From NCBI RefSeq assembly GCF_009914755.1, contig NC_060925.1: a stretch of DNA of 64,000 bases; one strand, 5' to 3'. This DNA is from the human T2T-CHM13v2.0 reference genome, Homo sapiens. A program made the translations under genes and the position numbers. This document shows, in pieces, positions 12,241-45,207 of this stretch. The notes beneath the pieces are model-generated. The model was given only the letters and a program-made list of their open reading frames with translations, searched no databases and was not told where the DNA came from. The number at the start of each line of letters is the position of its first letter. The stretch's first letter is position 1.

Positions 12241-12428
12241 TACCTCAGACAGGCCCCCGCCCCTAGCAGACAGCTCTGTTTGACCTGCATCATTCACTAA
12301 CCTGTCTCGGGGAGCCTGTCTACATGCACACATCTGTGTATGTTGGCCAATGTAAATGCTGCTTCTTGTGAGTGTCTGTGGTATGCATATGTGTCCTTGT
12401 GTGTGGATGCACACGTGCTGCTTGTGTC

Positions 12429-12527
12429 TCTACAAGCAGATACAAGGATGCCCTTGTACACAACACACGTGCTGCTTGTATAGACATGAGTGTTGTCTAC
12501 GAGGGCATCCTTGTGTCTGTGTGTGTG
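12429..12527 (+). ncRNA. MIR3659: pre-miRNA hsa-mir-3659 (mature 3p at 12487-12507)
   Basis: tgagtgttgtctacgagggca matches the miR-3659 mature sequence as I recall it; 12437-12466 pairs with 12490-12519 (27 Watson-Crick, 2 G:U, 1 mismatch). Confidence 0.9.
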
Positions 12528-12608
12528 CCTGTGTTGGTCTGGGCATGAGTGCATATGAGTCTATGGTTTTATATGTGTACATCTCAGAATGTGTGTGTAT
12601 GTACATTT

Positions 12609-12830
12609 TGTTTTTTTTTCTTCCAGGTTGAAGCGATTCTCTTGCCTCAGTCTCCCCAGTAGCTGGGATTACAAGCACCTGCCAACACGCCTGGCTAATT
12701 TTTTAATTTTTAGTAGAGATGGGGTTTCACCATGTTGGCCAGTCTGGTCTCGAACTCCTGACCTCAAATGATCCGCCCACCTTGGCCTCCCAAATTGTTG
12801 GGATTACAGGCGTGAGTCACTGTACCTGGC
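12609..12830 (-). mobile_element. Alu lacking the distal right arm but keeping tail and TSD
   Basis: Poly(T) joined directly to ccaggttgaagcgattct; TSD tgtgtatgtacattt at 12594-12608 and 12831-12845. Confidence 0.9.
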
Positions 12831-13179
12831 TGTGTATGTACATTTCTGTGTGCCTGTTGTGCTTGTCTGCCGGTCTATGTATTTGTGACTGGGTGTGTCT
12901 GTGTGTTTCTGTGCATCCATGTGGGCTGTGCATGCATGTGCATATGTGCATGGATATGGATGTTCATGTTCATATGTGTATATCAGTGGCTGCCCACGCT
13001 TGAATGCCTCTGTGTGGGTCACTAGGTATGTCTGTGGGATCTGCTATTTGTGTCTGTGCATCTGTGTGTCAGTATGACTATGTGTGTGTCTCTGTATGTG
13101 CATTCCTATGCATGTCTCAATTTGTGTGTGTGTGTGCGCATGTGCGTGTGAAATGCTTGCTAGACTGACTGTGAAATGA

Positions 13180-27439: not shown

Positions 27440-28500
<1,061 letters not shown>

Positions 28501-43314: not shown

Positions 43315-44310
<996 letters not shown>

Positions 44311-45129: not shown

Positions 45130-45207
45130 TATTTGGTTGTTGCAAAAATAATTGCAGTCTTGCCATTAACTTTGGTAAAACTGCAATTACTTTTGCACCA
45201 ACCTAAT
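45130..45207. mobile_element. MADE1 (Hsmar1-derived mariner MITE)
   Basis: About 80-bp palindrome tttggttgttgcaaaaataattgcag...ctgcaattacttttgcaccaacctaa. Confidence 0.9.

What the first reader, a model, noticed from the sequence alone, without database searches (positions are those of the whole stretch)
12410..12527. MIR3659 hairpin appears to have been born in one 54-bp serial template-switch insertion
Seen: cacacgtgctgcttgt occurs twice, 54 bp apart (12410-12425, 12464-12479). The sequence between is built from inverted copies of downstream DNA: 12426-12439 is the reverse complement of 12472-12485 (13/14), and 12437-12466 is the reverse complement of 12490-12519 (27/30). The junctions carry 3-nt microhomologies (cag 12437-39, cac 12464-66). 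Deleting 12410-12463 restores a seamless TG-rich sequence with no hairpin. Established: replication template switching can create miRNA-like hairpins de novo in primates. Inference: this miRNA arose in one step by a double switch, and the three differences between the arms date the event.
Basis: partly seen in the sequence, partly recalled or inferred. Interest (0 to 1): 0.8.

Follow-up and report, generated by a model that had tools for sequence, protein, structure and literature searches.

The report
MIR3659 hairpin from template switching: known

Summary
Every coordinate in the observation checks out. There is a 16/16 direct repeat 54 bp apart, a 13/14 inverted copy and a 27/30 inverted copy. 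Together they tile the 54-bp block with no base left over, with CAG and CAC shared at two junctions. No shuffle reaches the main repeats (0 of 300). The small second fragment is moderately beyond chance (P 0.0008 to 0.037).

The core interpretation is already published. hsa-mir-3659 is listed in Table S1, 'TSM-generated miRNA gene loci', of Monttinen, Frilander and Loytynoja 2023 (PMC10710096) with TSM length 28. It is apparently one of the 'partially explained' loci. The paper also says multi-switch cases exist.

The locus is single-copy in the genome, so it is not a MITE.

Two claims are weaker than written. The sequence without the 54 bp still folds moderately: -38.7 against -60.9 kcal/mol. 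Four differences in 54 sites date the event only to about 10-95 Myr.

One compound event cannot be told from two successive events without outgroup genomes, and no tool here holds any. Verdict: real, ordinary and already known; low interest.

The parts
12410..12425 (+). Direct repeat copy 1 (16 nt). With its upstream flank it is the older, contiguous sequence.
   Evidence: 16/16 identical to 12464-12479. Tandem Repeats Finder places 12373-12427 in a 25-nt, 2.2-copy, 80% array, so flank and repeat copy 1 belong together.
12426..12439 (+). Inverted fragment 1, a reverse-complement copy of 12472-12485. Its last 3 nt (CAG) are shared with fragment 2.
   Evidence: 13/14, with the single difference at 12430 against 12481. 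Chance P is 0.0008 to 0.037 depending on whether the shared CAG is counted.
12437..12466 (+). Inverted fragment 2, the new 5' arm of the hairpin: a reverse-complement copy of 12490-12519. Its last 3 nt (CAC) are shared with repeat copy 2.
   Evidence: 27/30. 0 of 300 shuffles reach this. The published primary TSM length for this locus is 28.
12464..12479 (+). Direct repeat copy 2 (16 nt). It forms the upper stem and apical loop region of the hairpin.
   Evidence: fold (loop at 12475-12480).
12472..12485 (+). Source of inverted fragment 1.
   Evidence: (pair I3).
12490..12519 (+). Source of inverted fragment 2: the pre-existing 3' arm.
   Evidence: (pair I1). It lies outside the block bounded by the direct repeat, so it is the template rather than the copy.
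12487..12507 (+). Annotated mature miR-3659 (3p product). It lies in the older source arm, so the seed (12488-12494) predates the hairpin.
   Evidence: Hub annotation (other transcript exon 12487-12507). Table S1 gives the product at 59-79 of the precursor. Sequence printed.
12429..12527 (+). Annotated MIR3659 precursor hairpin.
   Evidence: Minimum free energy -60.9 kcal/mol, z -9.85, 0 of 200 shuffles as good.
12373..12427 (+). Decayed 25-nt TG-rich tandem repeat forming the upstream context.
   Evidence: period 25, 2.2 copies, 80% matches, score 66.

Best explanation
The 5' arm of the MIR3659 hairpin is a local, templated, reverse-complement copy of sequence that already lay downstream and is now the 3' arm. 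It was inserted together with a 16-bp duplication. This is a short-range template-switch mutation (TSM) of the kind described by Loytynoja and Goldman, and it is already catalogued for this locus by Monttinen et al. 2023.

The whole 54-bp block is accounted for by three jumps:
1. Synthesis leaves the template after the sequence now at 12410-12425 (1-nt overlap).
2. It copies 12485 back to 12472 in reverse complement.
3. It jumps at CAG to copy 12519 back to 12490 in reverse complement.
4. It returns at CAC to 12464, which re-copies 16 nt.

Read on the other strand, both templates lie in DNA the nascent strand had just made, so two snap-backs within one strand would suffice (inference).

The event gave a pre-existing TG-rich intronic sequence a near-perfect partner strand. 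This turned it into a roughly 40-bp stem that is transcribed with its host lncRNA and processed. The mature 3p product and its seed come from the old arm.

Shown here: the repeats, the tiling, the microhomologies, the fold and the single-copy status. Taken from print: absence of the hairpin at the inferred parent node. Inferred: that all 54 bp arrived in one event (I put this at about 0.45; two successive TSMs about 0.4).
For: - Exact anatomy.
- 0 of 300 shuffles reach either main repeat.
- The second fragment has P 0.0008-0.037.
- No base of the 54-bp block is left unexplained, and two of three junctions have 3-nt overlaps. A uniform-composition null gives P(3 nt or more) = 0.051 per junction.
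- Differences are spread evenly across the three parts: 0/16, 1/11 and 3/27, with Fisher P 0.28-1.0.
- The fold goes from -38.7 to -60.9 kcal/mol for the best 99-nt window.
- Two of the three arm differences are T opposite G, which still pair as G:U in RNA. One of them is at a CpG, 12500-12501.
- Table S1 of PMC10710096 lists hsa-mir-3659: TSM length 28, same strand as host lncRNA ENSG00000224592 inside a large intron, expression-stack score 0.066 against the paper's processing threshold of d<0.2 (Methods).
- The paper states that cases needing multiple template switches exist and are not captured by its algorithm.
Against: - No outgroup sequence could be examined here, so the ancestral state is taken from the publication. 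Its per-locus figure (Dataset S2), its SI Appendix (Table S1, Fig. S3) and the branch of the event were not visible to me.
- The 'Used in heatmap' cell is blank for this locus. [quoted passage not shown] That is compatible with a second fragment but also with other readings.
- The first junction has only a 1-nt overlap.
- The region is low-complexity TG/CA-rich, which inflates chance matches: background direct repeats of 70-90% are everywhere.
- The sequence minus the block is not unstructured (z -3.3).
Confidence: 0.8

Rival explanations
1. Stepwise origin by two ordinary two-jump TSMs on different branches. In the cleanest version, a first TSM copies 12485-12472 in reverse and returns at 12464. 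This makes a small 8-bp hairpin plus the 16-nt duplication. A later TSM then inserts fragment 2 exactly between CAG and CAC. The reverse order is also possible.
For: Both orders reproduce the present sequence exactly (junction analysis). In the first order, the later event is a textbook TSM with 3-nt overlaps at both ends and a length near the published 28. The paper documents loci hit twice by TSMs, such as hsa-mir-4713 and hsa-mir-5681a.
Against: It needs four jumps rather than three and two independent rare events within the same 60 bp. Divergence of the three parts is homogeneous, though with only 4 differences the test has almost no power.
Confidence: 0.4
2. Same sequence outcome, different enzymology: templated insertion during double-strand-break repair (polymerase-theta end joining with snap-back synthesis, or MMBIR) rather than a switch at a replication fork.
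For: The features seen here are short inverted templated stretches taken from within 60 bp, 1-3 nt microhomologies and more than one templated piece. By recalled knowledge of that pathway, these are also typical of theta-mediated repair. The MMBIR literature appeared only in the search listing; I did not read it.
Against: Nothing in a single genome sequence separates the two mechanisms. The 30-nt fragment and the 54-bp total are at the long end of what I recall for theta-mediated insertions (recalled, not from a call).
Confidence: 0.15
3. Only the 30-nt fragment is templated. The 13/14 match of 12426-12439 is a chance match in low-complexity DNA, and those 11 nt are filler or later change.
For: P = 0.037 for the 11-mer alone under the local Markov model. 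The match was found post hoc. Part of it (ACAAGCAG) is also complementary to the direct repeat itself. The published solution reports a single TSM of 28.
Against: With the shared CAG the match is 13/14 (16 of 20,000). It abuts both neighbouring pieces with no gap or overlap other than the microhomology. Its source spans the very point where synthesis left the template. Extending the 30-nt fragment instead gives only 3 of 5 matches at 12432-12436 (compare pair I1).
Confidence: 0.12
4. Opposite polarity: the 3' arm is the copy and the 5' arm the source.
For: A weak direct repeat flanks the 3' arm: 12473-12492 against 12532-12551, at 75%, sharing an exact 8-mer (family D5).
Against: That repeat is at the background level of this decayed tandem region (other families are 70-92%). 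About 24 nt (12520-12543) would stay unexplained.
Confidence: 0.04
5. The hairpin is a transposon-derived (MITE-type) palindrome.
For: The 16-bp direct repeat superficially resembles a target-site duplication.
Against: A 181-nt query (12380-12560) finds only itself and its own inverted self-match in the 3.1-Gb assembly (2 matches, both at this locus). The tool warns that DNA search skips simple repeats and very common words. The 38 nt between the repeat copies are made of local sequence. No Rfam family reaches gathering score; the best is mir-3149 at 33.9 bits against 100, matched on both strands.
Confidence: 0.02

Closest known systems
TSM-generated primate miRNA genes (Monttinen, Frilander, Loytynoja 2023, PNAS, PMC10710096), which list this very locus
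   Same: This is the same locus. hsa-mir-3659 is a row of their Table S1: TSM length 28, intronic in a lncRNA on the same strand, product at 59-79.
   Different: Their algorithm models one inverted fragment with two reciprocal jumps. The locus is not marked for the heatmap, which was reserved for solutions leaving at most 9 nt unexplained. Whether their Dataset S2 or SI Fig. S3 already shows this I could not see.
Four-point short-range template-switch model (Loytynoja and Goldman 2017; Loytynoja 2022; Walker et al. 2021). Seen only as references 13-15; content recalled.
   Same: Leave the template, copy a nearby stretch in reverse complement, then return. Returning upstream of the leaving point gives a duplication, as with the 16-nt repeat here.
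   Different: Three jumps and two inverted fragments in permuted order, rather than one fragment.
FoSTeS / MMBIR and serial replication slippage. Lee, Carvalho, Lupski 2007 is reference 27 of the paper. Hastings et al. 2009 (PMC2621351) was seen in the listing only.
   Same: Several successive microhomology-guided template switches within one event, joining discontinuous pieces in mixed orientation.
   Different: Those models were framed for kilobase-to-megabase rearrangements in disease. Here every template lies within 60 bp and the product is 54 bp.
Quasi-palindrome correction (Ripley 1982; Dutra and Lovett 2006). References 16-17; content recalled.
   Same: Intra- or inter-strand template switching that increases the complementarity of an inverted repeat.
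   Different: The pre-event sequence had only a weak, different helix. The event created the arm rather than perfecting an existing one.

Membership tests
TSM-generated miRNA locus (criteria of PMC10710096, Methods read) | Inverted fragment of at least 15 nt with at least 80% identity to a nearby source | tested here: met
   27/30 = 90%, 12437-12466 against 12490-12519.
TSM-generated miRNA locus (criteria of PMC10710096) | Parent node lacks the fragment; the switch alignment beats the forward alignment and explains at least 5 mismatches; source and target are conserved in sister and parent nodes | not testable with these tools
   No primate or mammalian genomes are held. The locus passed these filters in the publication, since it is listed in Table S1.
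TSM-generated miRNA locus (criteria of PMC10710096) | No equally long hairpin before the event | tested here: met
   Tested on a proxy (the window minus 12410-12463), not on a real ancestor. The best 99-nt window folds to -38.7 against -60.9 kcal/mol, and the longest helix is 12 bp rich in G:U, against about 40 bp.
TSM-generated miRNA locus (criteria of PMC10710096) | Solution leaves at most 9 nt unexplained ('fully explained' class) | tested here: inconclusive
   With one fragment, 11 nt of new sequence (12426-12436) remain. With the second fragment, 0 remain. The heatmap cell is blank in Table S1.
Canonical Drosha/Dicer miRNA | Stable stem-loop of about 35 bp with the roughly 22-nt product in one arm | tested here: met
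   The stem runs from 12431 to 12525 with 3 single-base interruptions and a 6-nt loop at 12475-12480. The 21-nt product 12487-12507 lies in the 3' arm (and the annotation).
Canonical Drosha/Dicer miRNA | Precise read stacks; Drosha/Dicer dependence; AGO loading | not testable with these tools
   Only second-hand: a stack score of 0.066 (threshold 0.2 from the Methods) and CLIP target counts quoted in Table S1. No CNNC motif occurs in 12508-12540 (the role of that motif is recalled). I did not establish whether the locus is in MirGeneDB.
Transposon-derived (MITE) hairpin miRNA | Multiple dispersed copies of the palindrome in the genome | tested here: not met
   Only the locus itself and its inverted self-match were found in 3.1 Gb.
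Multi-jump template switching in one event (FoSTeS-like / serial slippage) | Two or more templated segments joined at microhomologies | tested here: met
   Two inverted segments plus a 16-nt re-copy, with junction overlaps of 1, 3 and 3 nt.
Multi-jump template switching in one event (FoSTeS-like / serial slippage) | All segments arrived in a single mutational event | not testable with these tools
   This needs outgroup genomes. Homogeneity of divergence has no power with only 4 differences.

The most novel reading that the evidence does not exclude
The whole 54-bp block arose in a single three-jump event whose two templates both lay in the just-synthesised nascent strand (two successive snap-backs). 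That would make MIR3659 a fully resolved example of the multi-switch class that the published two-jump algorithm cannot capture. The guide strand and seed would be older than the gene itself, with the mutation supplying only the passenger arm.
Probability: 0.4. Interest if true: 0.3.

Novelty: already known. Interest (0 to 1): 0.15.

Why it matters
Template switching as a one-stroke source of new miRNA hairpins is an established result, and this locus is already in the published catalogue. The finding therefore adds no new biology.

Its residual value is methodological. A reader working from one genome alone recovered the published event. It also proposed a complete three-jump parse for a locus the two-jump algorithm apparently explained only in part. 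If confirmed on primate alignments, such parses could move some of the 30 'partially explained' loci into the 'fully explained' class, and they would argue for multi-jump models in TSM detectors.

Tried and rejected
- Rfam: no family at gathering score covers the hairpin. There are weak look-alike hits to other TG/CA-rich miRNA models: mir-3149 at 33.9 bits on + and 27.7 on -, mir-999, mir-568 and mir-297. I read these as composition, not homology. The whole-window gathering scan gave only an Alu-type SRP hit at 27730-27877.
- Age of the miRNA from the literature: a search for 'mir-3659' plus 'primate' gave 2 unrelated papers. A looser six-term search did not force the miRNA name and was useless. 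The supplement of PMC4966751 has no '3659'. The supplement of PMC3563971 could not be searched. The 80 papers mentioning miR-3659 (25 listed; listing only) are biomarker or target studies.
- The bioRxiv version of the TSM paper has no '3659' in its main text.
- A single longer TSM (the 40-nt arms 12432-12471 / 12485-12524 at 83%) was rejected. The extra 5 nt on each side match only 3 of 5. The 5' extension is matched 5 of 5 by fragment 1, and the 3' extension belongs to repeat copy 2.
- Dating from arm differences was rejected as uninformative.
- A syntax error was replaced by reading the reference list.

Full report
**Observation.**
- 12410-12425 equals 12464-12479 (16/16). Identity ends at once on both sides.
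- 12426-12439 is the reverse complement of 12472-12485 at 13/14.
- 12437-12466 is the reverse complement of 12490-12519 at 27/30.
- CAG (12437-12439) belongs to both inverted fragments. CAC (12464-12466) belongs to fragment 2 and to the second repeat copy.
- The first junction shares only one base (pair I3).
- The 54 bp are therefore tiled with no base unexplained.

**More than chance?** In 300 dinucleotide-preserving shuffles of the non-Alu part of the region (12300-12583), none reached a 27/30 inverted repeat (mean best 17.1, maximum 21). None reached a 16-nt exact direct repeat (mean 8.4, maximum 12).

Across the whole 64-kb window, the repeat finder lists 20 inverted pairs of 26 nt or more within 80 nt. 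Apart from simple AT repeats, an inverted Alu pair, a poly-T/poly-A pair and one other hairpin at 45131-45207, this is the only one.

The small fragment is the weak point. The 11 nt not otherwise covered match at 10/11. Local Markov-1 random 11-mers achieve this somewhere within +-150 nt in 746 of 20,000 trials (0.037). With the shared CAG (13/14), only 16 of 20,000 do (0.0008). The match also sits exactly between its neighbours, and its source spans the leaving point. I take it as probably real, but it was found post hoc in low-complexity DNA.

**What it is.** The annotated precursor 12429-12527 folds into one long stem at -60.9 kcal/mol, z -9.85, with 0 of 200 shuffles as good. The annotated mature product 12487-12507 lies in the 3' arm, which is the source rather than the copy. 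So the guide and its seed predate the hairpin, and the mutation supplied the partner strand.

Of the three differences between the arms, two are T opposite G and still pair as G:U in RNA. One of those (12455 against 12501) sits at a CpG, 12500-12501. The third is a C:C mismatch, 12459 against 12497.

The upstream flank and repeat copy 1 belong to an older, decayed 25-nt tandem repeat at 12373-12427. This supports the view that flank plus one repeat copy were contiguous before the event.

The locus is single-copy. A 181-nt query finds only itself and its inverted self in 3.1 Gb. No Rfam family reaches threshold. It is not a MITE.

**Before and after.** Removing 12410-12463 in silico lowers the best 99-nt fold from -60.9 to -38.7 kcal/mol. 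The remainder is not structureless. It forms a different helix, 12479-12490 with 12510-12521, which is 12 bp including four G:U pairs. Its z is -3.3, with 0 of 200 shuffles as good. An anchored 109-nt version gives -34.5 kcal/mol, z -1.9, with 10 of 200 as good. 'No hairpin' should read 'no miRNA-like hairpin'.

**Mechanism.** Call the old sequence U-A-B-C-D-E-F:
- A+B is the 16-mer.
- C is 12480-12485.
- D is 12486-12489.
- E is 12490-12519.

The present sequence is U-A-B-C'-B'-E'-A-B-C-D-E-F, where primes mark reverse complements. The two inverted pieces are in permuted order relative to their sources, so a single two-jump switch cannot make them.

Three jumps can: leave after B, copy C then B backwards, jump at CAG to copy E backwards, and return at CAC to A. 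Read on the other strand, the nascent strand has just made E', D', C', B' and A'. Its 3' end snaps back on its own E' (through GTG/CAC), copies E, moves through CTG/CAG to its own B'C', copies B and C, and returns. Every template is then within 60 nt in the nascent strand itself. This is inference from the geometry.

A uniform null gives P = 0.051 for an overlap of 3 nt or more at a junction. Two of the three junctions have one.

**One event or two.** Three histories reproduce the human sequence:
1. One three-jump event.
2. A first switch giving B-C'-B'-A (a small hairpin plus the 16-nt duplication), followed by a clean insertion of E' between CAG and CAC.
3. E' first, then C'B'.

Differences are 0/16, 1/11 and 3/27 in the three parts (Fisher P 0.28-1.0). 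With four differences this test has no power. I put one event at about 0.45 and two events at about 0.4.

**Dating.** Four differences in 54 sites give a Jukes-Cantor distance of 0.078 between copies. The Poisson 95% range for four events is 1.09-10.24. At an assumed 1e-9 per site per year (recalled, not from a call), this gives 39 Myr with a range of 10-95 Myr. One difference is a fast CpG transition. The differences do not date the event usefully.

**What is known.** I read the following parts of Monttinen, Frilander and Loytynoja 2023 (PMC10710096): the abstract, sections 5, 6 and 11, part 1 of the reference list, and all three parts of the one supplementary spreadsheet held.

The 'Used in heatmap' cell is blank. 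The Methods reserve the heatmap for solutions leaving at most nine bases unexplained. So the locus is probably among the 30 'partially explained' ones. That fits an 11-nt remainder, but I cannot be sure it is the reason.

The paper also says cases explained by multiple template switches were seen (SI Fig. S3) and are not captured by the algorithm, citing Lee, Carvalho and Lupski 2007. I could not see Dataset S2, the SI Appendix or the branch assigned to this event. The bioRxiv version has no '3659' in its main text.

I found no other printed statement on the age of mir-3659 (listings and supplement searches only).

**Verdict.** The template-switch interpretation is correct in kind and already known. 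The three-jump parse is a neat and plausible refinement, but it is untestable here and may already be in supplements I could not read. The 'no hairpin' and 'dating' claims are overstated. Interest is low.

Noticed in passing
window 45131-45207: A second strong hairpin: 35-nt arms, 86% complementary, 7-nt spacer (pair I4). By recall its arms resemble the MADE1 / mir-548 type of mariner-derived palindrome. It does not reach any Rfam gathering score and is not in the hub's gene table.
   Followed up: partly
window 12373-12427 and 12500-12560: The MIR3659 neighbourhood is a decayed TG-rich tandem array: period 25, 2.2 copies, 80%. Many 70-92% direct repeats lie around it. This low-complexity background inflates chance matches and gives the pre-event sequence a moderate G:U-rich fold.
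   Followed up: yes
window 12584-12832, with hit at 12646-12697 (- strand): The masked repeat just downstream of the hairpin gives a sub-threshold mir-1268 hit (42.9 bits against a gathering score of 83). By recall it looks like an antisense, 5'-truncated Alu. This agrees with 'SINE/Alu' within 1 kb in Table S1.
   Followed up: no
window 27730-27877 (+) and 43332-43497: There is a Metazoa_SRP hit at 74.7 bits, which is an Alu-type match rather than an SRP RNA gene. There is also an inverted pair of Alu-like arms: 57 nt, 75%, 52-nt spacer (pair I1).
   Followed up: no
window 12436-12520, both strands: The hairpin scores weakly against Rfam mir-3149 on both strands (33.9 and 27.7 bits, gathering score 100). 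This shows that near-palindromic TG/CA-rich miRNA models cross-match by composition.
   Followed up: no
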